This document shows positions 27,763 to 64,000 of a DNA stretch of 64,000 nt, piece by piece. The stretch spans positions 9,241-73,240 of IMG/VR virus record IMGVR_UViG_3300032323_002779. One strand, written 5' to 3'. The translations under genes were made by a program, and so were the position numbers. The notes under the pieces are model-generated. The model did not search any database. It was not told the origin of the DNA and saw only the letters and a program-made list of their open reading frames with translations. This stretch comes from a virus. Numbering within the stretch: the stretch's first letter is position 1; every line of letters begins with the position of its first letter.

Positions 27763-28443
27763 ATGAACAAGAAATTATTTTATACCGTAACCACATTGAT
27801 TGGGATTACTATAATTTATTTTACAGTTAAGAAATTCTTCGGCAAAAAGGCGCAACCTGTTGGTAGCGTTCTTTTTGTTGGGGATTCTATTACTGCAATC
27901 GAACACGATGGAAAACCTGTTACCACTACATATCCAAACATCATAAAAAAAGAGTTAGAACCTAAAGGGGTCAAAGTTGATGTTGTGGCGCAGGGCGGTA
28001 AAAGAACTGATTGGATATTGGCTAATTTAATTGAAAAATTAAAAACTAACACTTACGACAGAGTTTATATCTACGGAGGGGTTAACGATATGTTTAGTGC
28101 GGTTTCCAAACAAAGAGCATTGCAAAACGTTCAGAAAATGGTTGATTTAATAAAAAGCAAGGGCGCAGAGCCGTTTGTAATTATTGGATATGATGCAGAA
28201 ACTTTTATGGACAATGACAAGTTAAAACCAACAAGTTATGTTCCCACTAAAGCAGGAATGATAGAATTAAAAAAGAAATATGTTGATTACCAAAATTCGA
28301 TAGCAGACACTATTAAGGGGGCTACTATTGTTGAAAAGTTCAACATACCAAGCAGTATGACCACCGATGCAATACACCCGACACCAAGAGGGCAAAAAAT
28401 CATCGCAGAAAAACTTTTAGAAAACTTGAGTAAAAGCGTGTAA
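27763..28443 (+). CDS. Membrane-anchored SGNH/GDSL hydrolase
   Basis: N-terminal TM; FVGDSIT, GGVND and DAIHP blocks. Confidence 0.88.
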   Translation: MNKKLFYTVTTLIGITIIYFTVKKFFGKKAQPVGSVLFVGDSITAIEHDGKPVTTTYPNIIKKELEPKGVKVDVVAQGGKRTDWILANLIEKLKTNTYDRVYIYGGVNDMFSAVSKQRALQNVQKMVDLIKSKGAEPFVIIGYDAETFMDNDKLKPTSYVPTKAGMIELKKKYVDYQNSIADTIKGATIVEKFNIPSSMTTDAIHPTPRGQKIIAEKLLENLSKSV

Positions 28444-28465
28444 AACAAAAAGAATGTAATAATTA

Positions 28466-28494
28466 TTTGCATATCTAATAATTTTTTATATTTG
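28466..28494 (+). promoter_or_regulatory. Bacteroidota sigma70 promoter
   Basis: TTTG-N17-TATATTTG in the intergenic gap before 28529. Confidence 0.6.
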
Positions 28495-28528
28495 TAAATT
28501 AAATTAACTTTATTAAGTTCAAAACACT

Positions 28529-29023
28529 ATGGAAACAATTAATGATTTATTAAGAGCGTTGGACAACAAAGTACCTGCTTCAATTGCTAAAAGATTAGAC
28601 GGTTTAAGTAAACTGAATGATAAATTAGTATTAGCAAGACAGGAAAATAGTGAAAATCCAACAGAGGAATCGCAAGAGAAATTAGAACAGATTATTGAAT
28701 TCATCTCGGACACCCAAGAGGATTTAAGAGAAGATTTGGCTGAACTTGTTGCTAAAAAAAGAGAGGCGGACGCAAAAGCCCGTCAAATTGCTAAAAACAA
28801 AGCAGATGCAGAGGCTAAAAAATTAGAGGAAGCAGAAGCCCTTAAAGCAAAGGAAAAAGAAGAATTAGAGCAGAAAGAATTATTGGAAAAACAAGCACTT
28901 GAGGCTACTCCAACAACTGACCCAAAAAAGAAGTCAGGAATTGGTTGGGGAGGTTTAGTTTTAGGAGGTGCGTTATTAATTCTTTCCGCAGGTGCAATAA
29001 ACTATTTTGGAAAAAAACGATAA
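28529..29023 (+). CDS. Coiled-coil protein with C-terminal TM anchor
   Basis: K/E/A-rich helix, then GIGWGGLVLGGALLILSAGAINYFGKKR. Confidence 0.8.
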   Translation: METINDLLRALDNKVPASIAKRLDGLSKLNDKLVLARQENSENPTEESQEKLEQIIEFISDTQEDLREDLAELVAKKREADAKARQIAKNKADAEAKKLEEAEALKAKEKEELEQKELLEKQALEATPTTDPKKKSGIGWGGLVLGGALLILSAGAINYFGKKR

Positions 29024-29191
29024 ATGACAAAAGCGCAAAAAATTTTATTAGTAGTAGGCATTATAGGTGTTGGAATCGGAGGCTTTGTTCTCACGAAATA
29101 CCTTACTCGTAACGTTAGAAAAATTCGAGGAGGAACTATTACGTTACAAACGTATGATACTCCTCCAAGTGAAGAACCTTTAAGCGAATAA
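29024..29191 (+). CDS. Small membrane protein (55 aa, MTKAQKILLVVGIIGVG...), not in the ORF track
   Basis: Fills the gap exactly; N-terminal TM. Confidence 0.75.
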   Translation: MTKAQKILLVVGIIGVGIGGFVLTKYLTRNVRKIRGGTITLQTYDTPPSEEPLSE

Positions 29192-29193
29192 TT

Positions 29194-29904
29194 ATGGGAA
29201 AGTACACGAAAATAGAGTTTAAAGTACCTGATGTTAATAGAAGTTTTGCGCAGGGAAGTTATAAATATTCAAACCAAAGTGTGATTACGGCAAATACTGC
29301 TTTATTAAAAAAAATAGTCAGCACCTATTCACGCCAAATAAACACTTGGGGAGAAGAATTTGAAATTGATAATTCTATAATTGCGAGTTTTATTGCAACC
29401 GAAAGCGGAGGCAAAAACTCTCCTCCAAATAAATTCGATGCAACAGGTCTTATGCAAGTTACCCCAAATGCAGTTTGGGAAACTATTGCTAAATGGAGAG
29501 TAATGGTAGATTCTCCGTTATCCGAAAAAGCAAAATCTTTTTTCAACAAAGTTATTCCGTCAAGCAAAAATTATAGTCCAAATAAATTGCCAACTTCTGC
29601 TATTAGAAGTGAAATACTTTTGGCATTACAAAAAAATCCTGAATTTAATATCGCAATAGGTACTGCGCTTTTAAGATGGCTTTTAGAAGCATTTAAAGAC
29701 GGAAACACTACTCACTTAAATAAAGTAATGGTTTCTTATAACGCAGGTTACTACTCTATGAGAAATAAAGTCAAAGGCAAATTGACTACGGCAGAATTGC
29801 TTAACAACAAGTCAATTCCTTTTGAAAGCAGAGCGTATCTTTTAAAGATGTTAGGTATAAATGGATTTTTAGATTTGTGGTTTAAGAGTAATATAAACGT
29901 TTAA
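29194..29904 (+). CDS. Lytic transglycosylase (SLT family)
   Basis: IATESGG catalytic Glu, GLMQV and SYNAG motifs. Confidence 0.88.
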   Translation: MGKYTKIEFKVPDVNRSFAQGSYKYSNQSVITANTALLKKIVSTYSRQINTWGEEFEIDNSIIASFIATESGGKNSPPNKFDATGLMQVTPNAVWETIAKWRVMVDSPLSEKAKSFFNKVIPSSKNYSPNKLPTSAIRSEILLALQKNPEFNIAIGTALLRWLLEAFKDGNTTHLNKVMVSYNAGYYSMRNKVKGKLTTAELLNNKSIPFESRAYLLKMLGINGFLDLWFKSNINV

Positions 29905-29914
29905 AATTAAAAAT

Positions 29915-30046
29915 ATGAAAAAAGAGTATGTTATTGGAGGTTTGGCATTAGTAGGCGTTATTGCCTTGTTTGCTTGGTACAGTAAGCCGAAAAAGAACAA
30001 AGAGGGGTTTTATAGCGCAAGTGGTTGCGGTTGTGGAGCAAAATAA
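29915..30046 (+). CDS. MKKEY-leader family peptide 1 (43 aa, ends EGFYSASGCGCGAK), not in the ORF track
   Basis: Translated manually; paralog of 30065 and 42568-43542. Confidence 0.8.
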   Translation: MKKEYVIGGLALVGVIALFAWYSKPKKNKEGFYSASGCGCGAK

Positions 30047-30064
30047 TCATTAAAATCGAATAAA

Positions 30065-30196
30065 ATGAAAAAAGAGTATATCATCGGAGGTTTAGCATTA
30101 GTTGGCATTATTGCCTTGTTTGCTTTTTATACAAAACCAAAAAAGAACAAAGACGGGTTTTATAGCGCAAGTGGTTGCGGTTATGGAGCAAAATAA
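30065..30196 (+). CDS. MKKEY-leader family peptide 2 (43 aa, ends DGFYSASGCGYGAK), not in the ORF track
   Basis: Tandem duplicate of 29915; TAATG overlap with the next gene. Confidence 0.8.
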   Translation: MKKEYIIGGLALVGIIALFAFYTKPKKNKDGFYSASGCGYGAK

Positions 30197-30489
30197 TGGC
30201 TTATAAAATTTTACCATATTCAAAAGCACAGGCGAACAAGTTGGGGGTTGAAATAAAACCCTCAACGAATTCGCTAAAAAAAATTGATGTTTTTAAGAAT
30301 GGTAAAAAAGTCGCTACAATAGGGGCTTTGGGTATGAATGATTATCCAACCTATTTAGAGAAAGAAAAAAAAGGATATTTCCCAAAAGGGTATGCCAAAG
30401 AAAGACGCAGGTTGTATAAACAACGCCACGAAAAAGACCGTCATAAAAGAGGGACAAATGGTTGGTATGCAGACAAAATATTGTGGTAA
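30196..30489 (+). CDS. Basic viral protein, DUF5754-like
   Basis: IG..GMNDY..RR.LY..RH..GWYA..ILW pattern; ATG 30196. Confidence 0.55.
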   Translation: MAYKILPYSKAQANKLGVEIKPSTNSLKKIDVFKNGKKVATIGALGMNDYPTYLEKEKKGYFPKGYAKERRRLYKQRHEKDRHKRGTNGWYADKILW

Positions 30490-31131
30490 ATGGCTTTAAT
30501 ATACGAAGATAAAGTACCCGCTTCTTATAGAAGTGGTTTTGTAAAAAAAGTATCTGAAATTTCAGATAAGATAGGTATTAACCCTAATTGGTTAATGGCT
30601 ATTATGTATTTTGAAAGCGCAAGAACGTTTAGTCCGTCAAAAGGCAATGATATTGGTTGTTACGGTCTTATTCAGTTTTGTCCTGATAGGGGTAAAAATT
30701 ACAAAACTGTCAACGGTAAGCGATACTTAATGTCGGATATTGCTAAAATGGATTATTCCGAGCAATTAGACTTGGTTTACGAATATTACAAGCCATATAC
30801 AGGAAAACTAAAAAGTTACACCGATACATATTTTGTAACATTTTTTCCTTTGGCTATCGGTAAGCCTGATGATTGGATTATTCAGGGCGGAGGTTTTACC
30901 GCAAGACAAATATACAATTCAAACCCTGCTTTTCATCAAGTAAAAGATGGTAAAATTAGGGTTTGGGAAGTAAAGAAAAAGATATTAGAAAAACTACCAA
31001 GCGAATGGGTTAATGAGGGGAGCGTTGGTTTAGCGGTTAAAGCATACAAAAATTATATTGCAGTTGGTATTTTGTCAATTGTAGCGGGGTTAACATTATT
31101 TTATTACACTTATGATAGACGCAGTAAATAA
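30490..31131 (+). CDS. Lysozyme-fold/SLT-like enzyme with C-terminal TM anchor
   Basis: WLMAIMYFES..F.P, GLIQF, EQLD.V..Y; hydrophobic tail. Confidence 0.75.
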   Translation: MALIYEDKVPASYRSGFVKKVSEISDKIGINPNWLMAIMYFESARTFSPSKGNDIGCYGLIQFCPDRGKNYKTVNGKRYLMSDIAKMDYSEQLDLVYEYYKPYTGKLKSYTDTYFVTFFPLAIGKPDDWIIQGGGFTARQIYNSNPAFHQVKDGKIRVWEVKKKILEKLPSEWVNEGSVGLAVKAYKNYIAVGILSIVAGLTLFYYTYDRRSK

Positions 31132-31306
31132 TAGTCAAGGTGCATCTAAAAATGGTCAAATTGACGAAAAAATACAAAAGGACGTAAATAAACAAATCCA
31201 TCAACACTTATCTACAATTTTTGTAGTAGTAGGTATTGTTTCTTTTACATTAGGTGCTATCGTAAATTGGTACACAATCAAAAGGATTAAAGCAGGTAAG
31301 TCGTAA
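31112..31306 (+). CDS. Small membrane protein
   Basis: C-terminal TM followed by basic residues. Confidence 0.7.
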   Translation: MIDAVNNSQGASKNGQIDEKIQKDVNKQIHQHLSTIFVVVGIVSFTLGAIVNWYTIKRIKAGKS

Positions 31307-31731
31307 TGAAAATATTCGGACAGGTTTTAGATGTAGACGGTTTGCCAATGAGTTTGGCTAACATAACTATTACAACAGGGGATAAAGCAGGAAAATTTGG
31401 CGATGAAGCCGACTTGGACGGTAACTTTGTGATAGACGATGCTTCTATTACTCCTGATTCTGAATTTAAAATTTCATACATTGGATATGTCCCTCAATTT
31501 TTCAAAGCGAGTGAACTTCAAGGTAAAAAAATAAAACTAAAGGAGGATATATTTGCTCTTGACGAAGTAATAATTACTTCGGGCGGAGGTAAGCCTAAAG
31601 GCAATTATCCTCAAGTAGTCGCCTCTAAAAAGAACAAATTCGTTCAGCACTTACAAGACCATAAATTTATTTATGCAGGATTAGGTGGTTTAGCAGGTAT
31701 ATTGCTAATTGTTAGAGCGTTAAAAAAATAA
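31306..31731 (+). CDS. CarboxypepD_reg-like domain protein with C-terminal TM
   Basis: I.GQVLD.DG.P...ANI...DLDGNF..ISYIGY..LDEVII, like the SusC N-terminal domain of Bacteroidota. Confidence 0.75.
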   Translation: MKIFGQVLDVDGLPMSLANITITTGDKAGKFGDEADLDGNFVIDDASITPDSEFKISYIGYVPQFFKASELQGKKIKLKEDIFALDEVIITSGGGKPKGNYPQVVASKKNKFVQHLQDHKFIYAGLGGLAGILLIVRALKK

Positions 31732-31737
31732 AAATTT

Positions 31738-32082
31738 ATGGAAAAATATAAATTAAAAGAAGATATAGTTTGGGGTGTTTTACAAAATGGCGAACCAAAT
31801 ATAATTTTCAAAAAAGGAGATGTAATACAAGGCGTAGAAATCGAAAAATTTATTTTTAATAAAATTACTAAAGGAGTTGAGTCAAAACCTACTGTTACAA
31901 GCGCAAAAGTAGAAACATCAGATGGTTTAGCCTTTGTTCCGTTATCAAGTATTGAAAAAATAACTGATACTTCAATCGCAGACGTTCCACCGCAAACATT
32001 TTTACAAAAAAATAAAACCAATTTACTAATAATAGGAGTATTGGTTTTAGGATATTTAGCATATAAAAAATTTAATAAATAA
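31738..32082 (+). CDS. Tail-anchored protein, FKKG/SH3-like family
   Basis: KYKLKED..FKKGDVI..VPLSSIEK; C-terminal TM plus KKFNK. Confidence 0.75.
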   Translation: MEKYKLKEDIVWGVLQNGEPNIIFKKGDVIQGVEIEKFIFNKITKGVESKPTVTSAKVETSDGLAFVPLSSIEKITDTSIADVPPQTFLQKNKTNLLIIGVLVLGYLAYKKFNK

Positions 32083-32088
32083 AATATT

Positions 32089-32421
32089 ATGGAAGCAGAA
32101 GTGGCAGTAGCACCCGTAGCACCCGCACCCGTAGCACCCGCACCCGTAGCACCCGCACCCGTAGCACCGACATCAGGTGGAGGCGGAGATGACGTGTTTG
32201 AAAGTATGGGGTCACAAAAACCAATGGATTTAAAAAGTTTGCTTGTGTTCGGGCTTTTGATTGCATTTTCAATATATGGAATTACATATTATAGAAAGGC
32301 AATTGCCAAACTGAATGACGACAAAAAGCCAAACGAAGATTTCCTTAATTTGGTAGATGACGTAGAGGAAGTGAAATACAATGTTAAAAAAGCATTGGGG
32401 AAAAGATACTCAACAACTTAA
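32089..32421 (+). CDS. Membrane protein with (PVAPA)n N-terminus
   Basis: 15-nt repeat at about 32104-32170; central TM. Confidence 0.75.
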   Translation: MEAEVAVAPVAPAPVAPAPVAPAPVAPTSGGGGDDVFESMGSQKPMDLKSLLVFGLLIAFSIYGITYYRKAIAKLNDDKKPNEDFLNLVDDVEEVKYNVKKALGKRYSTT

Positions 32422-32430
32422 TAAGTAGTT

Positions 32431-32634
32431 ATGGCAACTGAATCAAATAACGGCAAAGCAGTTTTGTTAGCAGTCCCTTTGGGATTTGCCATCTACTCTT
32501 ATTCCAAAGGTTTTAGCATCGGCAAAGGAATATTAGTAACTGTTTTGGGAAGTTTAGCAGTAGGCGTTGCGTTAGGTGTAACAACTGTTGTTTACGGCAC
32601 TTATAAAATTGCCAATAAAGATTATACAAAATAA
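32431..32634 (+). CDS. Small two-TM protein
   Basis: Two hydrophobic segments. Confidence 0.7.
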   Translation: MATESNNGKAVLLAVPLGFAIYSYSKGFSIGKGILVTVLGSLAVGVALGVTTVVYGTYKIANKDYTK

Positions 32635-32658
32635 ACCAAGAAATAACAACAAAGGACT

Positions 32659-32841
32659 ATGGAAAAGAGCAAAGGGTTAGGCGATACCGTAGCAAAAATT
32701 ACTAAATTTACAGGAATTAAAATGATTGTAGATGCGGTAACAGAAGATTGTGGTTGCGAAGCAAGACAAGAGTGGTTAAACGGCAAAGTGCCTTATGACG
32801 GAAAGAACGTTCAGAGAATTTTGAAGTTATTTAAAAAATAA
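32659..32841 (+). CDS. Small phage protein (SKGLGDT..DCGC..RQE.LN)
   Basis: Pattern resembles a common small phage ORF of unknown function. Confidence 0.7.
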   Translation: MEKSKGLGDTVAKITKFTGIKMIVDAVTEDCGCEARQEWLNGKVPYDGKNVQRILKLFKK

Positions 32842-32855
32842 AAACTTTTAAAAAA

Positions 32856-33071
32856 GTGAAAATAAACGAAGTTAGGACAGAAACAATACAAGAATTTCAA
32901 AAAAGCCAAGCGATTAGAATTATTGATGTTTTTGTTATCGCTCCAATTTGCGTTTATGCAGGATTAAAAGGTAAAACTCTGCCAAAACTAATACAATACA
33001 GTTTGATTATTATTGGCATTTCTACTTTTTATTACAATGGGAAAAACTATTTAAAAAACAAAAAAAAATAA
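32856..33071 (+). CDS. Small two-TM protein
   Basis: GTG start; two hydrophobic helices. Confidence 0.65.
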   Translation: MKINEVRTETIQEFQKSQAIRIIDVFVIAPICVYAGLKGKTLPKLIQYSLIIIGISTFYYNGKNYLKNKKK

Positions 33072-33082
33072 AAATAGAAATT

Positions 33083-33220
33083 ATGGCAAAAAAATTAAAC
33101 GGGTATTTCAAGGCAATGTTGGAAGCCAAAAAGAGTAATAAGGCATCATTTACCTACAACGGTAAAACGTATGTAGCATTAAAAACCAAAACAGGTATGA
33201 CTGTTTACAAAGCAAAATAA
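33083..33220 (+). CDS. Small basic protein (45 aa, MAKKLNGYFKAMLEAKK...), possible DNA-binding; not in the ORF track
   Basis: Fills the gap; Lys-rich. Confidence 0.7.
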   Translation: MAKKLNGYFKAMLEAKKSNKASFTYNGKTYVALKTKTGMTVYKAK

Positions 33221-33222
33221 TT

Positions 33223-33477
33223 ATGAAGACAAGAGATTTAGTATTAGTAGGAGCAGGATTGTTAGTAGGCTACCTTTTAGTGGGGTATTTGAATAAATCA
33301 AAAGACAACGCTCAAGGAACAATGGGTTCATCAGATTCAACAGTTGACCAAGCAAAAATTGACGCTTGTAATAAACAAGTAGCGGATTTTATGGCTACTG
33401 CTAAATTTGGGGCAGGTGCAGATTTAGACGCAATTAGAAAAGAGCAGTTTGATGCTTGTATGGCGAAAACCGCTTAA
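33223..33477 (+). CDS. Signal-anchored protein with C-terminal Cys pair
   Basis: N-terminal TM; KID.C...F..CM; paralog of 33490. Confidence 0.75.
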   Translation: MKTRDLVLVGAGLLVGYLLVGYLNKSKDNAQGTMGSSDSTVDQAKIDACNKQVADFMATAKFGAGADLDAIRKEQFDACMAKTA

Positions 33478-33489
33478 TTAAAAAAAAAT

Positions 33490-33819
33490 ATGAACAATAG
33501 AGAGGTAATTTTATTTGGAGTTGGTTTTTTAGTCGGGTATATGGTTATAAGAGCAACAAAAAACAATGTTGTTCTTAATCCTGCAACTCAAAGTCTTCCG
33601 AACACTTATGCTGAAACAATTCCACCTGCAACGGCAGGGACGGTGGCAGGTACTACTCAAATTCAAGAACCTGAAATTGTGGAAACATTAGAAGACCCTA
33701 AAATCGCAGATTGTAAAGAAAAATGGATTAAATTCGCAGAAACAAGAAAATTTGCTTCTGCGGAACAAGAACAAGCGACATACGATAACTTTATGACAAG
33801 TTGCGTAGCGCAATCTTAA
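33490..33819 (+). CDS. Signal-anchored protein with C-terminal Cys pair
   Basis: N-terminal TM; KIADC...KF...FM.SC. Confidence 0.75.
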   Translation: MNNREVILFGVGFLVGYMVIRATKNNVVLNPATQSLPNTYAETIPPATAGTVAGTTQIQEPEIVETLEDPKIADCKEKWIKFAETRKFASAEQEQATYDNFMTSCVAQS

Positions 33820-33829
33820 AAAAACGTAT

Positions 33830-34474: not shown

Positions 34475-34497
34475 CAACCAAGAACAAAACAACAACA

Positions 34498-34884: not shown

Positions 34885-34886
34885 AT

Positions 34887-36417: not shown

Positions 36418-36419
36418 TT

Positions 36420-36536: not shown

Positions 36537-36537
36537 T

Positions 36538-37353: not shown

Positions 37354-37378
37354 ACATTAACCATTAAATTAACAGACT

Positions 37379-38591: not shown

Positions 38592-38593
38592 TA

Positions 38594-54441: not shown

Positions 54442-54442
54442 T

Positions 54443-54826: not shown

Positions 54827-54829
54827 CAG

Positions 54830-55198: not shown

Positions 55199-55200
55199 TT

Positions 55201-55419: not shown

Positions 55420-55424
55420 TCGGT

Positions 55425-55850: not shown

Positions 55851-55856
55851 TGATTA

Positions 55857-56963: not shown

Positions 56964-56976
56964 ATAAAAAGCGGGT

Positions 56977-57672: not shown

Positions 57673-57677
57673 AAGTT

Positions 57678-58100: not shown

Positions 58101-58107
58101 AAAAAAT

Positions 58108-58653
58108 ATGGTTTTTACAAATACAATTCAGGGTACTGCTTACAGTTGCCAATCAGACAAAAGCATTATTGAGATAAAGAAAAATGCTTTAGATTACCAT
58201 ACTAAAAATATCGGTAATCCTGCTAAATCAACTGTGACTCCTGCTCAACTAAAAATTATGGAACTTGATTATGAAACTTCAAAAAAGAAGTATGACGAAT
58301 CTCCTTGTGGAAAAGACCCTGAAACAGATGTCTGTATTGCTTTGCAGGGACAGATAACGTCTATGCAATCAACAATTCAATATTTCCGTAGTAAAGGAGA
58401 TATTCAAACGGCAAATTCAAGAACCAAGCAATTAGAGGAAATGGTTAAGAAATTTGACGATAATAAATGCGGGGAAAAAGTAGGTGGCTTTAGAGCAGGA
58501 GTTATTCGGGAAATTTCAGAAACTTTTCAGGCTTTAGATAAAAAAAGAATTGAAGAGGAAAGCAAGTATCAGGCAAAACAAAAAATATTTTTTGGAGCAA
58601 TAATTTTGGTAGGAGCAGTATTAATTATTACAATGTTCGGTAAAAGACAATAA
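58108..58653 (+). CDS. Helical tail-anchored protein with two Cys-bounded repeats
   Basis: C..L..QI...F...KC; C-terminal TM; resembles 57678. Confidence 0.75.
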   Translation: MVFTNTIQGTAYSCQSDKSIIEIKKNALDYHTKNIGNPAKSTVTPAQLKIMELDYETSKKKYDESPCGKDPETDVCIALQGQITSMQSTIQYFRSKGDIQTANSRTKQLEEMVKKFDDNKCGEKVGGFRAGVIREISETFQALDKKRIEEESKYQAKQKIFFGAIILVGAVLIITMFGKRQ

Positions 58654-58654
58654 G

Positions 58655-59215
58655 ATGAAAAAAGTATTATTATTTGGCGGAATAGCCATAGCGGGTTTCG
58701 GGTTGTATAGATATTTCAAATACCAAATTGATTTGGCTTTAAATTACGATTATAAGTTAAAAGATTTTAAAGTAATAGGTCAGCAAGGGGACTTGCTCAA
58801 AGTTTCTGCTACTTTTGAAATTACTAATAAGTCGTCTTTTAAAGTAGATGTTACAGGATATGAGTTAGAATTGTTTTTCAAAGATGTTCCTTTTGCATTG
58901 ACAAAATCTTCTGAAAAAATAACAATTCAGCCAAACTCTTCATTTCAAATAATTGGTTATGGAGAAATTAATATTAAAACTGCAAAAATCGTAATCGTGC
59001 CTTTCTTAAAAGATGTTTTAGAAAGAAAGCCGATTGATGTTTCGGTTTCAGGTGTTATTAACGTTGTGTTCTTGGGAATACCTACAACTTTGAAATTTGA
59101 CAAGCAAAAGTTCAATTATAGTCTTGATTTGATTGAAGACTATAAATTGGGTAATGCTTATGAAAAATTAAAGGATAAATACCCAAAAATATTTGCTCTT
59201 TTAGGAATTAGATAA
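58655..59215 (+). CDS. LEA_2/WHy-like membrane-anchored protein
   Basis: TM; ITNKSSF.V.V..Y..............I.PNS pattern. Confidence 0.65.
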   Translation: MKKVLLFGGIAIAGFGLYRYFKYQIDLALNYDYKLKDFKVIGQQGDLLKVSATFEITNKSSFKVDVTGYELELFFKDVPFALTKSSEKITIQPNSSFQIIGYGEINIKTAKIVIVPFLKDVLERKPIDVSVSGVINVVFLGIPTTLKFDKQKFNYSLDLIEDYKLGNAYEKLKDKYPKIFALLGIR

Positions 59216-59379
59216 ACTAAAGATATATGGAATGGTTTTTTGGTTGTAGTTGGTATTTTTTTAGTGCGAAAAAAATAAAAAAAGGCATTTTGCAAAATAA
59301 TAAAAAAATTGCTTTTCCTTAAAAAAAAAGATATTATTTTACTATTTTTGACACAAGAAACTATTTAAACTAAAGCATT

Positions 59380-59775
59380 ATGGTTGAGGGTATTGTTAAA
59401 AAAATTATGATGACGGGCATTAACAAATACGCAAAAGCGTATGGCACGTCAAATGAAAACGTTCAAATTAAAGTTACTGACGACATTGACGGGAATGTTT
59501 TTTACACTATGTGTAATGACTTCAAAGATGTTGAACAAGTTACTTTTTTGAATATTATGGATAAGCGAATGGATTTCTTCGGGTATGAGGGTTTGTCATC
59601 GCCTTTCCTTAAAAAAGCATTAGCGATTTTTGCAACCGAAGCAGGTTGTGATGTTTCAAATGTAAACTGTTTTATAATGAAACATAAAGAAACCGTTGGA
59701 TTGGCTTTTTATAACGGATTTAAAAATGGTAAAAACATTCTTCTTGCGAAGCAATTAGAACAGTTAGGATTGTAA
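59380..59775 (+). CDS. Hypothetical protein
   Basis: 131-aa ORF preceded by TATTTTTG (59343-59350). Confidence 0.7.
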   Translation: MVEGIVKKIMMTGINKYAKAYGTSNENVQIKVTDDIDGNVFYTMCNDFKDVEQVTFLNIMDKRMDFFGYEGLSSPFLKKALAIFATEAGCDVSNVNCFIMKHKETVGLAFYNGFKNGKNILLAKQLEQLGL

Positions 59776-59787
59776 AAACATTTAATT

Positions 59788-60090
59788 ATGGCAGTTCAGA
59801 GAAAACCGAGAGAAACTATAACAGTAAACGCAAAAGACATACATTGGATAAAAGAAACGTTAGGTAGTTTAACAGGTAAGGTTGACACAATTGAAAAAAC
59901 AACAACGAAGTTAAATACAACTATCGTTGGAGATGATGCTTATGGACAAGTTGGATTGGTCACTAAAGTCAAAGAACACGCCGATTACATAGAGCAGGAC
60001 AAAGGATTTAAAGCAAAACTTATTGGAGGCAGTATCGTTTTGGGAGGACTTTGGACATTGCTGATAAAGTTTTGGGATAAAATTTTTTAA
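59788..60090 (+). CDS. Coiled-coil protein with C-terminal TM
   Basis: ORF. Confidence 0.7.
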   Translation: MAVQRKPRETITVNAKDIHWIKETLGSLTGKVDTIEKTTTKLNTTIVGDDAYGQVGLVTKVKEHADYIEQDKGFKAKLIGGSIVLGGLWTLLIKFWDKIF

Positions 60091-60102
60091 TAAAAATAAA
60101 AT

Positions 60103-62163
60103 ATGGGAGTTACATCATCACAGGCGCAAAACATTACTTCTCCTAACGGAAACTCATTAGCCGTATTTATTGATGGTGTAACGGGTATTTTGCTATTAAA
60201 AGACATTAATGGCGCAACAGAGCCTTTGTCAAATTATATTTGCGGTGGCGGTGGCGGTGGCACAAGTCCTTTTGAGTACGGAACTACGGGTGGTGGAACA
60301 TCTTCAATACAACCTGTTGTCGGAAGTAATGTAGCGTTTGGAGAAAATGATACAGTAAGTGGTGGTAGTTTTAATACTGCTAATGGAGGTCAATCTACCG
60401 TAAGCGGAGGTATTTATAACGATGCAAGTGGAGATGCTTCTGTTGTTGGTGGCGGGATTTGCAATACTGCTTCGGGATTAAGGTCAATAGTTGCGGGTGG
60501 TCGCTCCAACACCTCTTCGGGTTGTTATTCAATAATCGGAGGCGGTAATTCTAATACCTCTACAAACGATTATTCAGTAGTGGGTGGCGGGAGTACTAAT
60601 ACGGCTTCAGGTATTTACGCAACCGTTGCGGGGGGATATTATAATAACGCTATTTGTGATAGCGCAACAGTTGGAGGCGGGAGATGTAATACTGCTTCAG
60701 AGGCTTGTTCAATAGTTGGAGGGGGTTTTTGTAATATTGCTTCAGGATATACTTCAGCAATTGGAGGTGGTTTTTCTAATACTGCTTCAGGCACTTATTC
60801 AACAATAGGAGGAGGCTCTCTAAATATCACTTCTTGTAATTTGGCAACAGTCGGAGGTGGTAAATATAATACGGTTTCTAATTGTTTTGGTAATATTTCA
60901 GGCGGATTATGTAATACCGTTTCAGGTAAATATAGCAATGTGTCGGGAGGTGTTTGCAATACTGCTTCAGGGGTATATGCTTCGTCTGTTGGTGGCGGAT
61001 TTTCAAATATTTCTTCTTGTTGGTACGCTAATGTTGGTGGGGGTTATCAGAATGAGGCGACCAACTTTAACTCCGTTGTAGGAGGTGGTGCTTTGAATTG
61101 TTCAAGAGGGAATAGCAGTACTGTTGCAGGAGGTTGTAATAATTTGGCGTGTTGTTTTTTTACAAGTATTGGAGGCGGTAGGGCAAATACCGCATCACAA
61201 AATAACGCTACAATAGGAGGAGGTCAATGCAATACTGCTTCGGCTTTATGTTCGACTGTTGGCGGTGGTAGTACAAATATCGCTTCGGGTAATTGCTCGG
61301 TAGTTGGAGGAGGTCAATGCAATAGTGCTTCGGGTGTTTGTTCATCTATTTTAGGCGGTTGCGGAAATACGGCTTCATTTTTAGGCGCAGTAACCATAGG
61401 AGGTTCTGTCAACTGTTCATCAAACGAGCATAGTGTAATTGTTGGAGGGCAATGCAATTGCTCTTTAGGCAAATTTTCTTTCGTTGGAGGAGGTCTTCGT
61501 AATGTAGCGAGATGTTGTAATGCAACAATTGTGGGAGGTCAATACAATGACACCTGTACGTTTTGTAATGTTGTAATTGTAGGAAGCGATTTGTGTGCAA
61601 CGCAAAATTGTACTGCTTTTATGAACTGCGCTTCTATTGCTAATTTAACGGTTGGGTGCGCAGTTGTTGTTGGTGCTAATAAAGTCCTTGTTAATGCTAC
61701 GCCTAAAATTGGTAGTTTCTTCAGTACGGTAACTCAATGCGCTACAACTATTAATACTCCAAAAGCAATGACTTTAAGTAATACTGATGCTATTACTTCG
61801 GGCGTTAGTATAGTTTCAAACTCTCAAATTACAGTTGACACGGCAGGTATTTATAATTTACAATTTTCCGCTCAAGTAGATAGAGTAAGCACTTCGGGAG
61901 TTGACTTAATAGAAATTTGGTTTAGAAAGCAAGGAGTAGATATACCTAATTCAACTACTAAAGTAACTGTGTCGGGAAGTGCTAATCAAGCAAAAGTGGT
62001 TGCGAGTTGGAATTTTTATTTGTCATTAACGGCGGGGCAATATGTGGAATTAATGTATTCTGTGACTGACTTGAACGTTCAACTTGTTGCGGAGGCGGAG
62101 AATTTAGTTGTCCCCTATCCTGCAACACCGTCTTTAATAGTGACAATTCAAAAAATAAATTAA
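60103..62163 (+). CDS. Fibre/spike protein: ~14-aa GG.xN.AS repeats (beta-helix-like) plus C1q/TNF-like C-terminal head
   Basis: About 29 [VI]GGG.xN.AS[GC]..[SA] repeats; ITV..AG.Y.LQFSAQ...L..GQYVEL head. Confidence 0.7.
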   Translation: MGVTSSQAQNITSPNGNSLAVFIDGVTGILLLKDINGATEPLSNYICGGGGGGTSPFEYGTTGGGTSSIQPVVGSNVAFGENDTVSGGSFNTANGGQSTVSGGIYNDASGDASVVGGGICNTASGLRSIVAGGRSNTSSGCYSIIGGGNSNTSTNDYSVVGGGSTNTASGIYATVAGGYYNNAICDSATVGGGRCNTASEACSIVGGGFCNIASGYTSAIGGGFSNTASGTYSTIGGGSLNITSCNLATVGGGKYNTVSNCFGNISGGLCNTVSGKYSNVSGGVCNTASGVYASSVGGGFSNISSCWYANVGGGYQNEATNFNSVVGGGALNCSRGNSSTVAGGCNNLACCFFTSIGGGRANTASQNNATIGGGQCNTASALCSTVGGGSTNIASGNCSVVGGGQCNSASGVCSSILGGCGNTASFLGAVTIGGSVNCSSNEHSVIVGGQCNCSLGKFSFVGGGLRNVARCCNATIVGGQYNDTCTFCNVVIVGSDLCATQNCTAFMNCASIANLTVGCAVVVGANKVLVNATPKIGSFFSTVTQCATTINTPKAMTLSNTDAITSGVSIVSNSQITVDTAGIYNLQFSAQVDRVSTSGVDLIEIWFRKQGVDIPNSTTKVTVSGSANQAKVVASWNFYLSLTAGQYVELMYSVTDLNVQLVAEAENLVVPYPATPSLIVTIQKIN

Positions 62164-62174
62164 ATTTAAAAAAA

Positions 62175-64000
62175 ATGAGTTTAACTAAATCACAATCTCA
62201 AAATATAACTTCTCCTGACGGTAATTCTTTAGCGGTCTTTATTGACGGCGTTACAGGGATTATTACCTTAAAGGACGTTAACGGGAAAACCGAACCTTTA
62301 TCAAACTATGTTTGCGGAGGCGGTGGCGGAGGGACAAGTCCTTTTGAATATAACGCAAACGCAACGGGTATTCAGCCCGTGTTAGGAACAAATGATGCGA
62401 GTGGAGATTACGCCGTAATAGGTGGGGGTCAAAATAATACTGCTTCTTGTAATTGTTCATTTATTGGAGGAGGGGAATATAATAATGTTTCTGAACAATT
62501 ATCAACAATAGGGGGTGGTACTAATAACACGGCATCAGGCAATTCAGCCATAATTGGAGGAGGGCGTTATAACACCACTTCTGATTACGCAACTACTGTT
62601 GGTGGAGGTATATATAATACTGCTTCAAGTTATTACGCAACCGTTGGAGGTGGTAGATGTAACATTGCTTCAAACGAAAGGGCAACTATTGGAGGCGGGG
62701 ATAATAATATATCTTCGGGTTACAGGTCAACAGTAGGGGGTGGTTATGAAAATATCGCTTCTTGCAATGAAGCAACAGTTGCGGGTGGTCGTAGCAATAA
62801 TGCTTGTCATAGTTATACAACAATTGGTGGTGGAGCGAATAATACTGCTTCTTGCAATTTTTCAACAATTTCGGGTGGTCAATGCAATACCGCATCTAAT
62901 ATTTGCACTTTTATAGGAGGCGGATTTTGTAATACTGCTTCGGGTCAATTCTCAAAAATTGGAGCAGGTAGTTGTAATAATGCCTCTTGTTATCACTCAA
63001 TAATTGTAGCAGGTTGTGGAAATTCCGCTTCACAGGCTTTCTCATTTGTAGGAGGTGGTAAATGCAATAATGCTTCAGGCGACTATGGAATAATAGTAGG
63101 TGGTCGTGGCAATACCGCTTCAAATTATTACGCAACGGTTGGTGGCGGTTATTGTAATACTGCTTCGGGTTGTTATGCAACCGTTGGAGGTGGTCGTTGT
63201 AATATTGCTTCGGGCGAATATAGTGCGACAATAAGTGGGGGTCAAAAAAATACTGCTTCCTGTAATTACGCAACAATTGGAGGTGGTTATCGTAATACGG
63301 CTTCTGCTTCTTACACAACGATTGGGGGCGGATATTGCAACACAGTATCAGGACGTCGTTCTACAATTAGTGGTGGTGCGTTTAGTAATGTTTCAGGGTG
63401 TTACGCAACAATAAATGGAGGTTTTGGAAATTTAAACAAATCTAATCTTGGTTTTATTGGTGGCGGTAGTGTAAATGCAAATTCGTCCACGCCTATTTTT
63501 TCCCCTTGTTGCGTAAATAGTAATTGCTTTATATTGGTTGGCAACCAAACTGCAAACTTTGCAATCGGAAATAAAATCGTTGCATCTAATTACAATAATG
63601 ACACTTGTGAATTTAATAACTATGTAGGGGAAGTAGATAATGTTGTTTTTTCGGGTGGTAACACTACTTTACAATTAAGCACAGAGTTTATTTGTAATAA
63701 TCAAATACCAAAATTAATAAACATAACAACCGCACAAGCGGGGTGCGTGTCATCAACAATAGGTGGTGGTTTTGCTAACAGAACTAACGGTTCTTTTGCG
63801 ACAATTGGAGGCGGTAAGGAGAATATTGCATCTTGTTCGTATGCAACCGTTGGAGGAGGTCAAAATAATACTGCATCGGGTCTTTGCTCAACGGTTGGTG
63901 GCGGATTTTGTAACACGGCATCGGGTGTTTGCGCAACAATAAGCGGAGGTCAATGCAATATTGCTTGTGGAGAACTCCCTACTATTTCAGGTGGTAGGGA
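62175..64000 (+). CDS. Second fibre/spike paralog, truncated by the window end (absent from the ORF track)
   Basis: ATG 62175 gives MSLTKSQSQNITSPDGNSLAVFIDGVTG, near-identical to the 60103 N-terminus; same repeats, open to 64000. Confidence 0.85.
   Translation, partial: MSLTKSQSQNITSPDGNSLAVFIDGVTGIITLKDVNGKTEPLSNYVCGGGGGGTSPFEYNANATGIQPVLGTNDASGDYAVIGGGQNNTASCNCSFIGGGEYNNVSEQLSTIGGGTNNTASGNSAIIGGGRYNTTSDYATTVGGGIYNTASSYYATVGGGRCNIASNERATIGGGDNNISSGYRSTVGGGYENIASCNEATVAGGRSNNACHSYTTIGGGANNTASCNFSTISGGQCNTASNICTFIGGGFCNTASGQFSKIGAGSCNNASCYHSIIVAGCGNSASQAFSFVGGGKCNNASGDYGIIVGGRGNTASNYYATVGGGYCNTASGCYATVGGGRCNIASGEYSATISGGQKNTASCNYATIGGGYRNTASASYTTIGGGYCNTVSGRRSTISGGAFSNVSGCYATINGGFGNLNKSNLGFIGGGSVNANSSTPIFSPCCVNSNCFILVGNQTANFAIGNKIVASNYNNDTCEFNNYVGEVDNVVFSGGNTTLQLSTEFICNNQIPKLINITTAQAGCVSSTIGGGFANRTNGSFATIGGGKENIASCSYATVGGGQNNTASGLCSTVGGGFCNTASGVCATISGGQCNIACGELPTISGGR

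What the first reader, a model, noticed from the sequence alone, without database searches (positions are those of the whole stretch)
27763..64000. Apparent large tailless, membrane-containing virus of Bacteroidota
Seen: an A32/P9-like ATPase, a beta-rich capsid candidate, about 60 membrane proteins, membrane-anchored muralytic and PG-binding proteins and two fibres, with no recognisable terminase, portal, HK97 capsid, sheath or tape measure in 64 kb of largely morphogenetic genes. Established: FtsK-HerA packaging ATPases with internal membranes typify Varidnaviria prokaryotic viruses (PRD1, PM2, sphaerolipoviruses), whose genomes are typically about 10-30 kb. Inference: a lineage with a genome over 64 kb would be far larger than characterised relatives.
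Basis: partly seen in the sequence, partly recalled or inferred. Interest (0 to 1): 0.88.

Follow-up and report, generated by a model that had tools for sequence, protein, structure and literature searches.

The report
Large tailless-type membrane virus of bacteria
This stretch is the particle-building gene block of an uncultured freshwater bacterial virus of 100 kb or more that has the DNA-packaging motor, jelly-roll coat-type protein and dozens of small membrane proteins typical of tailless, lipid-containing viruses, and no recognisable tailed-phage genes, so it would be several times larger than any described virus of that type.

Summary
The observation mostly holds. The 271-aa ATPase (36538-37353) models best onto the STIV2 packaging NTPase B204 (VIA-align Z 17.5, Foldseek E 4e-9). 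The 233-aa protein (39693-40394) has a single jelly-roll core. By a hydropathy rule, 51 of 72 ORFs in 27763-60100 have a membrane segment, against 2 of 33 outside. The two fibres are real. PG-binding domains were not confirmed.

Terminase, portal, HK97 capsid, relaxase and VirB4 profiles found nothing in the contig or four relatives.

The contig is truncated. Relatives reach 100-102 kb. A colinear 132,486-bp contig ends in inverted tandem 11-mers.

New here:
- Longer relatives carry a second, 154-aa jelly-roll paralog beyond the window.
- One relative has a 397-aa protein with two tandem copies of this jelly roll.
- The 261-aa "capsid candidate" at 45132 is an HExxH metalloprotease.

Taillessness, the membrane, the coat role and a Bacteroidota host are all still inferences. 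The scan found this lineage earlier on other DNA (e1-6055695, e1-6055712). Five literature searches found no description.

The parts
27763..60100 (+). Block of 72 tightly packed + strand ORFs, 51 with a predicted single-pass N- or C-terminal membrane anchor
   Evidence: Kyte-Doolittle scan; ORF list
27763..28443 (+). GDSL-family lipase/acylhydrolase with a hydrophobic N-terminus
   Evidence: Pfam Lipase_GDSL_2 E 3.6e-13
29194..29904 (+). Lytic transglycosylase (SLT domain)
   Evidence: Pfam SLT E 1.1e-13
30175..30489 (+). Small basic core protein (97-104 aa), conserved across the lineage, weakly DUF5754-like
   Evidence: 76-91% identity in relatives; 2009 homologs; Pfam DUF5754 E 4.3e-4
30490..31131 (+). 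Weak SLT-like protein with a C-terminal membrane anchor
   Evidence: Pfam SLT E 0.0034; TM at residues 189-207
33830..34474 (+). PAP2-family lipid phosphatase
   Evidence: Pfam PAP2 E 1.5e-13
34498..34884 (+). VRR-NUC / Holliday-junction-resolvase-like nuclease
   Evidence: phrog_824 E 4.6e-13 and phrog_5702 E 1e-4; weak Pfam VRR_NUC
35323..36417 (+). 364-aa core protein with an acidic N-terminus, a Q/P-rich middle and a strongly basic C-terminus; function unknown. A DNA-binding or scaffold role is inference only
   Evidence: Sequence; conserved upstream of the ATPase in relatives; no Pfam or PHROG hit
36538..37353 (+). FtsK-HerA-superfamily genome-packaging-type ATPase, closest to STIV2 B204
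37379..38098 (+). Two small membrane proteins (120 aa with 1 TM; 91 aa with 2 TM) directly after the ATPase
   Evidence: The position is analogous to the PRD1 small packaging-vertex genes P20 and P22, which lie close downstream of P9; this is analogy only
38127..38591 (+). Peptidase_M15_3 cell-wall peptidase
   Evidence: Pfam E 5.7e-20
39325..39349 (+). Intrinsic-terminator-like hairpin followed by a T run, closing the upstream unit
39437..39444 (+). TAAATTTG box (Bacteroidota -7-type TAnnTTTG) upstream of the two-gene unit
39509..39637 (+). 42-aa single-pass membrane peptide, first gene of the two-gene unit
   Evidence: Translation
39693..40394 (+). 233-aa single jelly-roll protein with a disordered N-terminal leader. 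It is the most conserved protein of the lineage and the best coat-protein candidate
45132..45917 (+). 261-aa protein with an N-terminal beta domain and a C-terminal zincin-type metalloprotease (invariant HExxH, downstream E..AD); candidate maturation protease
   Evidence: Alignment A3; weak SprT/M56/M48 hits
55857..56963 (+). Membrane-anchored protein with tandem PAS domains
   Evidence: Pfam PAS_3 E 2.5e-23; 2 TM
58655..59215 (+). LEA_2 / beta-sandwich protein with a hydrophobic N-terminus
   Evidence: Pfam LEA_2 E 2e-6
60103..62163 (+). Fibre 1 (686 aa): conserved N-terminal adaptor, then GGxxNxAS-type repeats
62175..64000 (+). Fibre 2, paralog of fibre 1, cut by the contig end

Best explanation
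The region is the virion-assembly module of an uncultured, lytic-type dsDNA virus of bacteria. Its genome is at least 100-132 kb, and it builds particles the way PRD1-, STIV- and P23-77-like viruses do, not the way tailed phages do.

Proposed mechanism (inferred unless marked otherwise):
- About 50 virus-encoded single-pass membrane proteins are inserted into the host cytoplasmic membrane and carried into a virus-specific lipid vesicle. Their presence is shown; their fate is inferred.
- A shell is built on that vesicle from a small jelly-roll protein family. The members are the very conserved 233-aa protein in the window and a 154-aa paralog encoded about 28 kb downstream in full-length relatives. 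The fold and the paralogy are shown; the coat role is inferred.
- The 233-aa protein's disordered N-terminal leader, and the giant polyvalent proteins upstream, are trimmed by the HExxH protease at 45132 (inferred).
- The B204-like ATPase docks at one vertex, possibly through the two small membrane proteins encoded just after it, and pumps the genome into the preformed particle. The ATPase class is shown; the docking is inferred.
- Repeat-rich fibres at the vertices bind the host.
- The SLT and M15 enzymes open peptidoglycan at entry or exit. The GDSL lipase and PAP2 phosphatase act on lipids.

The genome probably ends in short inverted tandem repeats, with both arms transcribed inward.
For: - ATPase: best structural match is B204, by a clear margin in Foldseek (E 3.8e-9 against 1.1e-5 for the next family) and by Z 17.5 against 15.3 in VIA-align. 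hhalign to the P23-77 packaging ATPase gives probability 84.7%, E 6.7e-6, over 143 columns.
- Jelly-roll core of the 233-aa protein. PR772 and PRD1 penton P31, a phiCjT23 capsid chain, and the FLiP, PBCV-1 and faustovirus MCPs appear among the Z 5-6.3 matches.
- It is the most conserved protein of the clade. For example, it is 90% identical to its G003 homolog, where the ATPase is 57%. It is present downstream of the ATPase in all 29 of the 38 loci where the profile detected it. It has 2017 database homologs.
- Each of the four longer genomes has a 154-aa paralog; hhalign probability 97.7%.
- 51 of 72 ORFs have TM segments, against 2 of 33 outside the block.
- Terminase_6N, Phage_capsid and Phage_portal gave 0 of 5 records. 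TerL_ATPase gave nothing on any viral contig. Controls were positive.
- The near-complete relatives G001, G002 and G006:C9 contain no unexplained ORF of portal or terminase size in the conserved core.
- Relaxase and VirB4 gave 0 of 5.
- A colinear 132,486-bp contig has uniform GC of 0.30-0.36 and a 56-nt perfect inverted terminal repeat made of 11-mers.
Against: - No particle, lipid or proteome data exist.
- The jelly-roll matches are generic. The best Z is only 6.6, to a carbohydrate-binding domain of AlgX, and Foldseek found nothing in the PDB at E<=0.001. The best BFVD row is labelled 'minor tail protein', at TM 0.24.
- There is no sequence similarity to the P23-77 VP16 or VP17 coat proteins, or to any SSIP-1 protein.
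- The two paralogs are not adjacent, unlike VP16 and VP17.
- The jelly-roll family has extra divergent copies in some relatives. That could instead fit a lectin-like or decoration role.
- HerA, VirB4 and DndH-C reach Z 15. Atlas neighbours of the ATPase carry Zot or DUF87 labels on 11-20% of members.
- A 160-aa protein in relatives matches PHROGs annotated 'short tail fiber' and 'tail fiber adhesin' (E about 1e-27).
- Only two proteins were folded, so an HK97-fold or portal-fold protein too diverged for Pfam and PHROGs is not excluded.
- All IMG/VR relatives are classed 'linear' with no proof of completeness.
Confidence: 0.6

Rival explanations
1. It is a highly diverged tailed phage (Caudoviricetes). 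Its capsid, portal, terminase and tail genes are too diverged for profile searches, and the many membrane proteins serve host takeover or superinfection exclusion, not virion structure.
For: - Fibre genes with a shared N-terminal adaptor resemble tail-fibre cassettes.
- A 160-aa protein in relatives matches PHROGs annotated as short tail fibre and tail fibre adhesin.
- The ATPase weakly matches phrog_2666 'terminase large subunit' (E 2.7e-5).
- Polyvalent proteins, RecT, Phg_2220_C and HNH are common in tailed phages.
- Atlas clusters are auto-labelled Uroviricota.
- Only two proteins were folded.
Against: - 0 of 5 records match Terminase_6N, HK97 Phage_capsid or Phage_portal, and TerL_ATPase finds nothing on the viral contigs.
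- PHROGs on 23 window ORFs, including all those of 370 aa or more, gave no portal, capsid or tail family.
- The conserved core has no unexplained ORFs of 400-700 aa.
- The only packaging-type ATPase is a 271-aa single-domain enzyme without a nuclease domain, and it models onto B204.
- A bias of 51 of 72 against 2 of 33 in TM content within one late-gene block is, from my own knowledge of tailed phages, unlike any of them.
Confidence: 0.17
2. It is a virus or virus-like element without an icosahedral protein shell. One possibility is an enveloped or pleomorphic particle, or a vesicle-borne element. Another is a non-viral mobile element in which the ATPase acts as a HerA/VirB4/Zot-like membrane translocase. 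In either case the jelly-roll family would be surface lectin-like proteins.
For: - The block is dominated by membrane proteins.
- HerA, VirB4, TrwB and DndH-C reach Z 12.6-15.3 on the ATPase model.
- Zot and DUF87 labels occur in Atlas neighbours.
- The best jelly-roll match is a carbohydrate-binding domain, and TNF/C1q-like heads rank high in Foldseek.
- Jelly-roll paralogs are scattered, some next to glycosyltransferase genes in G003.
- SLT, Zeta-toxin-like and polyvalent proteins also occur in conjugative elements.
Against: - B204 is the best match in both structure searches, and its compact size fits: 184 of 204 residues aligned.
- Zot/pI scores far lower.
- Relaxase and VirB4 profiles gave 0 of 5.
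- The 233-aa protein is under much stronger constraint than receptor-binding proteins usually are.
- Fibres and a lysis-type enzyme set fit a lytic virion.
Confidence: 0.15
3. It is a virus of a eukaryote, or part of a giant-virus genome, not a bacterial virus.
For: - The 132-kb relative sits in a bin that also has contigs with NCLDV-type capsid genes (E 2.7e-58).
- One of those contigs encodes a 64-68% identical homolog of the small core protein at 30175.
- A32-like ATPases are (from my own knowledge) giant-virus hallmarks.
Against: - That giant-virus-like contig shares only that one protein with this lineage.
- No NCLDV capsid or protein-primed polymerase profile hit falls on the viral records or on G006:C9.
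- The genes are unidirectional and nearly gap-free: 1,688 intergenic bases in 64 kb.
- A bacterial-type hairpin-plus-T terminator is present.
- The gene content is prokaryotic-mobile-element type: SLT and M15 peptidoglycan enzymes, RecT, Phg_2220_C, HNH, N6/N4 methylases and polyvalent proteins.
Confidence: 0.03

Closest known systems
Genome-packaging NTPase B204 of Sulfolobus turreted icosahedral viruses STIV/STIV2 (A32-like branch of the FtsK-HerA superfamily)
   Same: Single-domain P-loop ATPase of similar size. It is the best structural match: Z 17.5, rmsd 2.5 over 184 aligned of 204 residues, Foldseek E 3.8e-9.
   Different: About 17-20% sequence identity. No sequence-level hit in the PDB. 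The query has an extra C-terminal helical part of about 55 residues (217-271) that was not aligned. Archaeal host; STIV genomes are small (about 17 kb, recalled, from no call).
Thermus phage P23-77 and other Helvetiavirae, which have two single jelly-roll major capsid proteins plus a packaging ATPase and an internal membrane
   Same: The ATPase profile matches the P23-77 putative packaging ATPase (hhalign probability 84.7%, E 6.7e-6). This lineage also has two small jelly-roll proteins, of 154 and 233 aa; VP16 is 173 aa and VP17 is 291 aa. Both genomes also encode muralytic enzymes (P23-77: endolysins, a virion-associated lysozyme, a transglycosylase).
   Different: No detectable sequence similarity of the jelly-roll proteins to VP16 or VP17. 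The two genes are tens of kb apart, not adjacent. The genome is at least 100 kb against 17 kb. The lineage also has giant polyvalent proteins, long fibres and about 50 membrane proteins.
[quoted passage not shown]
   Same: Large for its class. It is described as encoding two MCP types with PRD1-type architecture (review passages), and it carries one giant structural protein, gp43 (6,960-nt gene).
   Different: No profile or BLAST similarity between any of 34 SSIP-1 proteins and this lineage. The SSIP-1 genome is circular and two to three times smaller. That the host Salisaeta is a halophile related to Bacteroidota is recalled, from no call.
PRD1 / Tectiviridae
   Same: Overall logic: a packaging ATPase gene with small membrane-protein genes close by, a virion transglycosylase, vertex spikes, and a linear record. 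That PRD1 has inverted terminal repeats is recalled, from no call.
   Different: The ATPase profile matches P9 only at the P-loop (probability 5.4%). No double jelly-roll MCP, terminal protein or protein-primed polymerase was detected. PRD1 is 14.9 kb.
Polyvalent proteins of phages and conjugative elements (Iyer et al. 2017, PMC5512222; search listing and abstract seen)
   Same: ART-PolyVal, DUF2958, DUF5661 and Zeta-toxin-like modules occur in proteins of 1,417-2,781 aa just upstream of the block. A zincin-type protease is encoded nearby.
   Different: Here they accompany a virion module that is not of the tailed-phage type. No MuF domain was reported by Pfam for the three giant proteins.

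Membership tests
A32/B204-type FtsK-HerA genome-packaging ATPases of Varidnaviria | Compact single-domain P-loop ATPase with Walker A and Walker B motifs | tested here: met
   271 aa. G13, K15, G16, G18, K19, T20 and L109, L110, E112, D113 are invariant in 20 sequences.
A32/B204-type FtsK-HerA genome-packaging ATPases of Varidnaviria | Fold closest to a solved viral packaging ATPase of this class | tested here: met
   B204 ranks first in Foldseek (E 3.8e-9; next family at 1.1e-5) and in VIA-align (Z 17.5; DndH-C 15.3, HerA 15.2, VirB4 15.1, FtsK 11.3, Zot 11.0).
A32/B204-type FtsK-HerA genome-packaging ATPases of Varidnaviria | Profile-level sequence similarity to accepted members | tested here: inconclusive
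   P23-77 ATPase: probability 84.7%, E 6.7e-6. PRD1 P9: probability 5.4%, P-loop only. M13 pI, used as a control: 2.8%. A32 itself was not available.
A32/B204-type FtsK-HerA genome-packaging ATPases of Varidnaviria | Phylogenetic placement inside the viral clade and not with cellular HerA/FtsK/VirB4 or Zot | not tested
Helvetiavirae-type virion (two vertical single jelly-roll MCPs) | Two single jelly-roll coat proteins | tested here: inconclusive
   The 233-aa protein has a jelly-roll core. A 154-aa paralog occurs in all four longer genomes. The fold matches are generic (best Z 6.6), and neither the coat role nor the barrel orientation has been shown.
Helvetiavirae-type virion (two vertical single jelly-roll MCPs) | Sequence homology to known small and large MCPs | tested here: not met
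   hhalign of A1 against VP17 and VP16 gave probability 0.1% each. No SSIP-1 hit.
Helvetiavirae-type virion (two vertical single jelly-roll MCPs) | Internal lipid membrane | not testable with these tools
   Only indirect evidence: 51 of 72 ORFs with TM segments, and PAP2 and GDSL lipase genes.
Bamfordvirae (double jelly-roll MCP) | [quoted passage not shown] | tested here: inconclusive
   Capsid_NCLDV gave 0 of 4 viral records and nothing on G006:C9. No other DJR profile was run. One relative has a 397-aa tandem fusion of two copies of the lineage's own jelly roll, but it was not folded.
Caudoviricetes (tailed phages) | Large terminase | tested here: not met
   Terminase_6N gave 0 of 5. TerL_ATPase found nothing on the viral contigs; the single sub-threshold hit lies on another contig of the G006 bin. 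Sensitivity is limited to the reach of Pfam.
Caudoviricetes (tailed phages) | Portal protein | tested here: not met
   Phage_portal gave 0 of 5. PHROGs on all large window ORFs gave none. Only one portal family was searched six-frame.
Caudoviricetes (tailed phages) | HK97-fold major capsid protein | tested here: not met
   Phage_capsid gave 0 of 5. Of the two candidates tested, one is a jelly roll and the other a metalloprotease. Not all ORFs were folded.
Conjugative element | Relaxase and a VirB4-type ATPase | tested here: not met
   Relaxase PF03432 gave 0 of 5 and CagE_TrbE_VirB gave 0 of 5, with positive controls.

The most novel reading that the evidence does not exclude
This is a widespread freshwater lineage of bacterial viruses. 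It took the membrane-plus-jelly-roll-plus-FtsK/HerA-ATPase particle plan to giant-virus-like scale (100-132 kb, with inverted-repeat ends, about 50 virion membrane proteins and packaged polyvalent effector proteins). Its coat-protein family is caught in the act of going from separate single jelly rolls to a fused double jelly roll: separate 233-aa and 154-aa paralogs, tandem gene duplicates, and one 397-aa protein with two jelly-roll domains in a row. If so, it would be a living intermediate for the proposed single-to-double jelly-roll transition in Varidnaviria, and a bacterial counterpart of large eukaryotic DNA viruses.
Probability: 0.15. Interest if true: 0.95.

Novelty: new variant of a known kind. 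Interest (0 to 1): 0.8.

Why it matters
Metagenome-mined prokaryotic double-jelly-roll viruses have some of the smallest dsDNA genomes, roughly 7-18 kb (Yutin et al. 2018, PMC5894146, passages seen). The largest cultured membrane-containing tailless phage that I know of, SSIP-1, has 43.8 kb.

A lineage of 100-132 kb would show that this particle plan is not limited to small genomes in bacteria. It would add a large and abundant group to freshwater viromes: about 2,000 database homologs each for two core proteins. Automatic pipelines currently file this group under tailed phages.

It would also give experimentally tractable questions:
- How is a very large membrane-lined shell measured and closed?
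- How does a small B204-like motor package more than 100 kb?
- Did the fused tandem jelly roll seen in one relative arise the way double jelly-roll capsid proteins are thought to have arisen?

Tried and rejected
Capsid candidates rejected:
- 45132-45917 (261 aa) is not a double jelly roll. Its C-terminal half carries an invariant HExxH zincin motif.
- The 408-aa ORF downstream in relatives (L056:18209-19435) is an NHL/SBBP beta-propeller.
- 35323-36417 (364 aa) looks disordered or helical and highly charged by eye. It was not folded.

Searches that led nowhere:
- tblastn of the ATPase, the 233-aa protein and the 261-aa protein against 50,697 phage records: no match.
- PDB sequence searches with the ATPase alone or as a profile: only P-loop noise. 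The A3 profile against the PDB: nothing.
- Atlas search with the 233-aa protein: scores of 0.80 or less, uninformative.
- SSIP-1 proteome against profiles A1-A4 and against all proteins of the 132-kb relative: nothing.
- PG-binding domains: not found.
- Exact scan of IMG/VR for the terminal 22-mer: 0 hits.

Complex prediction of the 233-aa core with the 154-aa paralog returned 'no answer' (score 0.00). This is no evidence either way.

Host search. 20 kb of the window was searched against 401 genomes of the family of the G006 bin. Apart from G006 itself, it gave only short matches (25-91 nt, E 1e-3 to 1.7e-7) in 32 genomes. I did not check whether any lies in a CRISPR array, so I draw no host conclusion from them.

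Genome ends. Public runs were laid on the left end of the 132-kb relative. In two freshwater runs from two studies (one may be the source), the long contig stops at the border of the tandem repeats, and the repeat unitigs have 2-5 times its depth. One short contig runs from the repeats into 156 nt found in none of my loci. Contigs cannot show molecule ends. The choice between linear ends with inverted repeats and a circle with a palindromic repeat therefore stays open.

Literature. Five searches listed no description of such a lineage. Supplementary files were not consulted, and subscription journals are not covered.

The Pfam and PHROGs budget (12 searches) was exhausted, so about half of the small ORFs were never profile-scanned.

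Full report
WHAT THE WINDOW IS. The window is bases 9241-73240 of a 73,240-bp IMG/VR virus record classed 'linear', with a CheckV estimate of 100%. Every long ORF lies on the + strand. GC is 0.31-0.41. The window has no tRNA, and only 1,688 of its 64,000 bases are intergenic. The contig's 3' end cuts a fibre gene, so the record is a fragment despite the estimate.

UPSTREAM HALF, OUTSIDE THE FINDING. Window 1-27761 encodes a Zeta-toxin-like kinase, an ART-PolyVal protein, an HNH/NUMOD4 nuclease and a MoxR-type AAA_5 ATPase. It also encodes three giant proteins of 1,897, 2,781 and 1,417 aa, whose only recognisable pieces are DUF5661, ART-PolyVal, DUF5642 and DUF2958. These are polyvalent-protein modules. 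PHROGs found no portal, terminase or capsid family in any of these large proteins.

CHECKING THE OBSERVATION.
- Membrane proteins. I called 72 + strand ORFs in 27763-60100. By a simple hydropathy rule, 51 have at least one membrane-spanning segment, nearly always a single N- or C-terminal anchor. Elsewhere on the contig the figure is 2 of 33.
- Recognisable enzymes: a GDSL lipase, an SLT transglycosylase, a weak SLT-like protein with a C-terminal anchor, a PAP2 phosphatase, an M15 peptidase, a PAS-domain membrane protein and a LEA_2 protein.
- Fibres. The two fibres are paralogs, 48% identical, E 3e-91.

THE ATPASE (36538-37353). Sequence searches gave only weak P-loop hits. With an alignment of 20 relatives, AlphaFold2 gave a confident model (pLDDT 87.4).
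- Foldseek against the PDB puts the STIV2/STIV packaging NTPase B204 first (E 3.8e-9 to 1e-7). The next families follow at 1e-5: Zot N-domain, HerA, RadA.
- The independent VIA-align search also puts B204 first (Z 17.5, rmsd 2.5, 184 residues). Then come DndH-C 15.3, HerA 15.2, VirB4 15.1, TrwB 12.6, FtsK 11.3 and Zot 11.0.
- At profile level it matches the P23-77 putative packaging ATPase (probability 84.7%, E 6.7e-6, 143 columns). It does not match PRD1 P9 beyond the P-loop or the Zot-family protein pI of M13 (probability 2.8%).
- Atlas neighbours carry Zot or DUF87 labels on 11-20% of members. The family therefore sits in the FtsK-HerA/Zot neighbourhood. By structure it is nearest the viral packaging enzymes, but I could not build a labelled phylogeny.

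THE JELLY-ROLL PROTEIN (39693-40394).
- Conservation. It is the most conserved protein of the clade: 90% identical to its G003 homolog, where the ATPase is 57%. It has 2017 database homologs, none named. The profile found it in 29 of the 38 related loci, in each of them downstream of the ATPase.
- Gene unit. It forms a two-gene unit with a 42-aa membrane peptide. A terminator-like hairpin and a TAAATTTG box lie upstream of the unit.
- Fold. The model is confident for residues 53-201, a jelly-roll sandwich. The 52-residue leader and the tail are disordered.
- Matches. Fold matches are generic. Foldseek finds nothing in the PDB at E<=0.001. VIA-align gives a best Z of 6.6, to an AlgX carbohydrate-binding domain. 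The PR772 and PRD1 penton P31 (6.3, 5.0), a phiCjT23 capsid chain (5.3), and the FLiP, PBCV-1 and faustovirus MCPs (5.0-5.1) appear among many unrelated sandwiches. The top BFVD row is a 'minor tail protein' at TM 0.24.
- Reading. The fold is right for a coat or penton protein, but it does not prove that role.

THE OTHER 'CAPSID CANDIDATE'. The conserved 261-aa protein at 45132 has an invariant HEFxH plus a downstream E..AD, and weak SprT/M56/M48 hits. It is a zincin-type protease with a beta-rich N-domain. It is a plausible maturation protease for the leader of the jelly-roll protein and for the polyvalent proteins (inference).

RELATIVES AND GENOME SIZE.
- The ATPase retrieved 38 IMG/VR loci. 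Three of them come from contigs of 100,322, 101,210 and 102,228 bp, which I fetched whole. They are colinear with the window's contig and extend it on both sides.
- A scan of species-representative genomes with the jelly-roll alignment found a 132,486-bp contig (G006:C9; 97% identity for the 233-aa protein, 98% for the ATPase). It is colinear with contig bases 3728-69515 at 80-88% nucleotide identity and has uniform GC of 0.30-0.36.
- Its two ends carry the same tandem 11-mer in inverted orientation: 56 nt perfect, 84 nt at 90%. Next to them lie G-rich degenerate repeats, and three tRNA genes sit at one end.
- G001 and G002 end in similar C-rich or short tandem repeats at the corresponding end.
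- Genes are transcribed inward from both ends. Several genes sit in opposite arms, inverted, in different members.
- This fits a complete genome with inverted-repeat ends. Laid public contigs cannot distinguish that from a circle with a palindromic repeat.

ABSENCE OF TAILED-PHAGE AND CONJUGATION HALLMARKS.
- Six-frame profile searches of the contig and four relatives found nothing at E<=0.1 for Terminase_6N, Phage_capsid (HK97), Phage_portal, Relaxase or VirB4, with the control genomes positive.
- TerL_ATPase, Capsid_NCLDV and protein-primed PolB gave nothing on the viral records or on G006:C9.
- In the near-complete relatives, the ORFs of 350 aa or more are: the polyvalent proteins; the AAA_5 ATPase and its partner; a protein I read by eye as glycosyltransferase-like (it was not scanned); fibres; a beta-propeller; a PAS protein; methylases; an LRR protein; and a few arm-specific unknowns without family hits.
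- None of these is conserved and unexplained in the way a portal or terminase would be.
- The limit of this argument is profile sensitivity, and only two proteins were folded.

A SECOND JELLY ROLL AND A FUSED ONE.
- All four longer genomes encode a 154-aa protein near the end of the + strand block, beyond the window's contig end. It is a paralog of the 233-aa protein: 37% identity by BLAST, hhalign probability 97.7%, E 1.9e-12.
- It sits in a conserved cluster with small membrane proteins, an LRAT/NlpC-like protein, the beta-propeller, and a 160-aa protein matching PHROGs annotated as tail-fibre adhesin.
- Some relatives have tandem duplicates or extra divergent copies.
- G003 has a 397-aa protein made of two consecutive copies of the domain (residues 20-205 and 226-394; E 6e-50 and 4.6e-45).
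- Two small jelly-roll proteins recall P23-77, whose VP16 is 173 aa and VP17 is 291 aa, as well as IN93 and SSIP-1, described as having two MCP types (review passages). There is no sequence similarity to VP16 or VP17, or to SSIP-1 proteins.
- The multiplicity could equally fit specialised capsomers of a very large shell or a lectin-like surface family.

HOST.
- A bacterial host is strongly indicated by peptidoglycan enzymes, RecT, Phg_2220_C, HNH, methylases, a bacterial-type terminator and operon-like packing.
- A Bacteroidota host is only weakly indicated. There are four TAnnTTTG boxes in the 1,688 intergenic bases, where about 1.5 are expected from their density in the window. The 132-kb relative is binned with a Sediminibacterium-labelled MAG.
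- That bin also contains contigs with giant-virus capsid genes, so the label carries little weight. Other relatives are binned in unrelated MAGs.
- Runs holding the genome are freshwater metagenomes from two studies.

COMPARISON WITH WHAT IS KNOWN. Functionally the closest models are the membrane-containing icosahedral viruses that use an FtsK-HerA packaging ATPase: STIV, P23-77, PRD1 and SSIP-1. Membership in Varidnaviria is not established, because its defining feature, a vertical jelly-roll major capsid protein, has been shown neither by homology nor by structure of an assembly. The known prokaryotic members are far smaller: 7-18 kb for the metagenomic DJR groups, 14.9 kb for PRD1, 17.0 kb for P23-77 and 43.8 kb for SSIP-1. 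Five literature searches listed no description of a lineage like this one.

EARLIER NOTES OF THIS SCAN. They reached the same reading on other genomes of the lineage. I re-derived the B204 match independently. I add the second paralog, the fused tandem jelly roll, the 132-kb genome with inverted-repeat ends, the P23-77 ATPase link, the negative conjugation tests and the warning about the host label.

VERDICT. The finding is real and unusual. The best reading is a large, tailless-type, membrane-containing bacterial virus (confidence about 0.6). A very diverged tailed phage (0.17) and a shell-less or non-viral membrane element (0.15) are the main rivals.

Noticed in passing
L052:17225-18418 (G003, a 102-kb relative): A 397-aa protein made of two consecutive copies of the lineage's jelly-roll domain (residues 20-205 and 226-394). 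Extra single-domain paralogs lie at G003 6650-7174 and 14648-15112, among glycosyltransferase-like genes.
   Followed up: partly
G006:C9 ends (L067:1-90 and L073:12330-12486): The 132,486-bp relative ends on both sides in 4-5 tandem copies of one 11-mer in inverted orientation, flanked by G-rich degenerate repeats. Three tRNA genes (Pro, Gln, Leu) sit beside one end. G001 and G002 end in similar repeats at one end.
   Followed up: partly
window 30175-30489; G006:C20:29790-30068: The small basic core protein (97-104 aa, weakly DUF5754-like) has a 64-68% identical homolog on a giant-virus-like contig that carries NCLDV-type capsid genes. That contig is in the same MAG bin as the 132-kb relative, and this is the only protein the two share.
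   Followed up: partly
G006 (MAG labelled Sediminibacterium sp.), contigs C12, C20, C25: The bin holds four Capsid_NCLDV matches (best E 2.7e-58) and a DNA_pol_B_2 match in a 1,411-aa frame. It mixes viral and bacterial contigs, so its taxonomic label should not be used for host assignment.
   Followed up: no
window 45132-45917: A conserved zincin-type (HExxH) protease with a beta-rich N-domain inside the structural block. It is a candidate for cutting the Gly-Gly-type seams noted by other readers in the polyvalent proteins and in the leader of the jelly-roll protein.
   Followed up: partly
window 10705-13710: A MoxR-type AAA_5 ATPase (470 aa) followed by a 529-aa partner with a weak DUF7192 hit. 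The pair is conserved in all relatives, between the giant polyvalent proteins. Function unknown.
   Followed up: no
window 42568-43542 and 29915-30196: Five small ORFs (three of 81-140 aa and two of 43 aa) share a nearly identical N-terminal membrane anchor (MKKEYIIGGLALLG...RKPKRNSEGF). Where a C-terminal part is present it is divergent and Cys-containing.
   Followed up: no
window 51129-52178; G002 61924-64033: Membrane-anchored proteins with low-complexity Gly/Thr (TGAGL / STG) repeat spacers. The repeat length differs between relatives.
   Followed up: no
L050:16372-16728 (G002): ARAGORN calls a tmRNA with an atypical tag peptide. It was not checked against Rfam and may be a false positive.
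   Followed up: no
G002 1943-7910 and 94482-95360; G006rc 104417-106012: Several paralogous DNA methyltransferase-like genes (a shared DLPYGTT-type motif in five G002 ORFs; Pfam N6_N4_Mtase confirmed for the one G006 ORF that was scanned) in the terminal arms of relatives. Arm genes occur in opposite arms and orientations in different genomes.
   Followed up: no
G000 record as a whole: CheckV completeness is given as 100 for this 73-kb record and for 77-102-kb relatives. Yet the record is cut inside a gene and lacks about 25 kb and 49 kb at its two ends relative to the 132-kb genome.
   Followed up: yes
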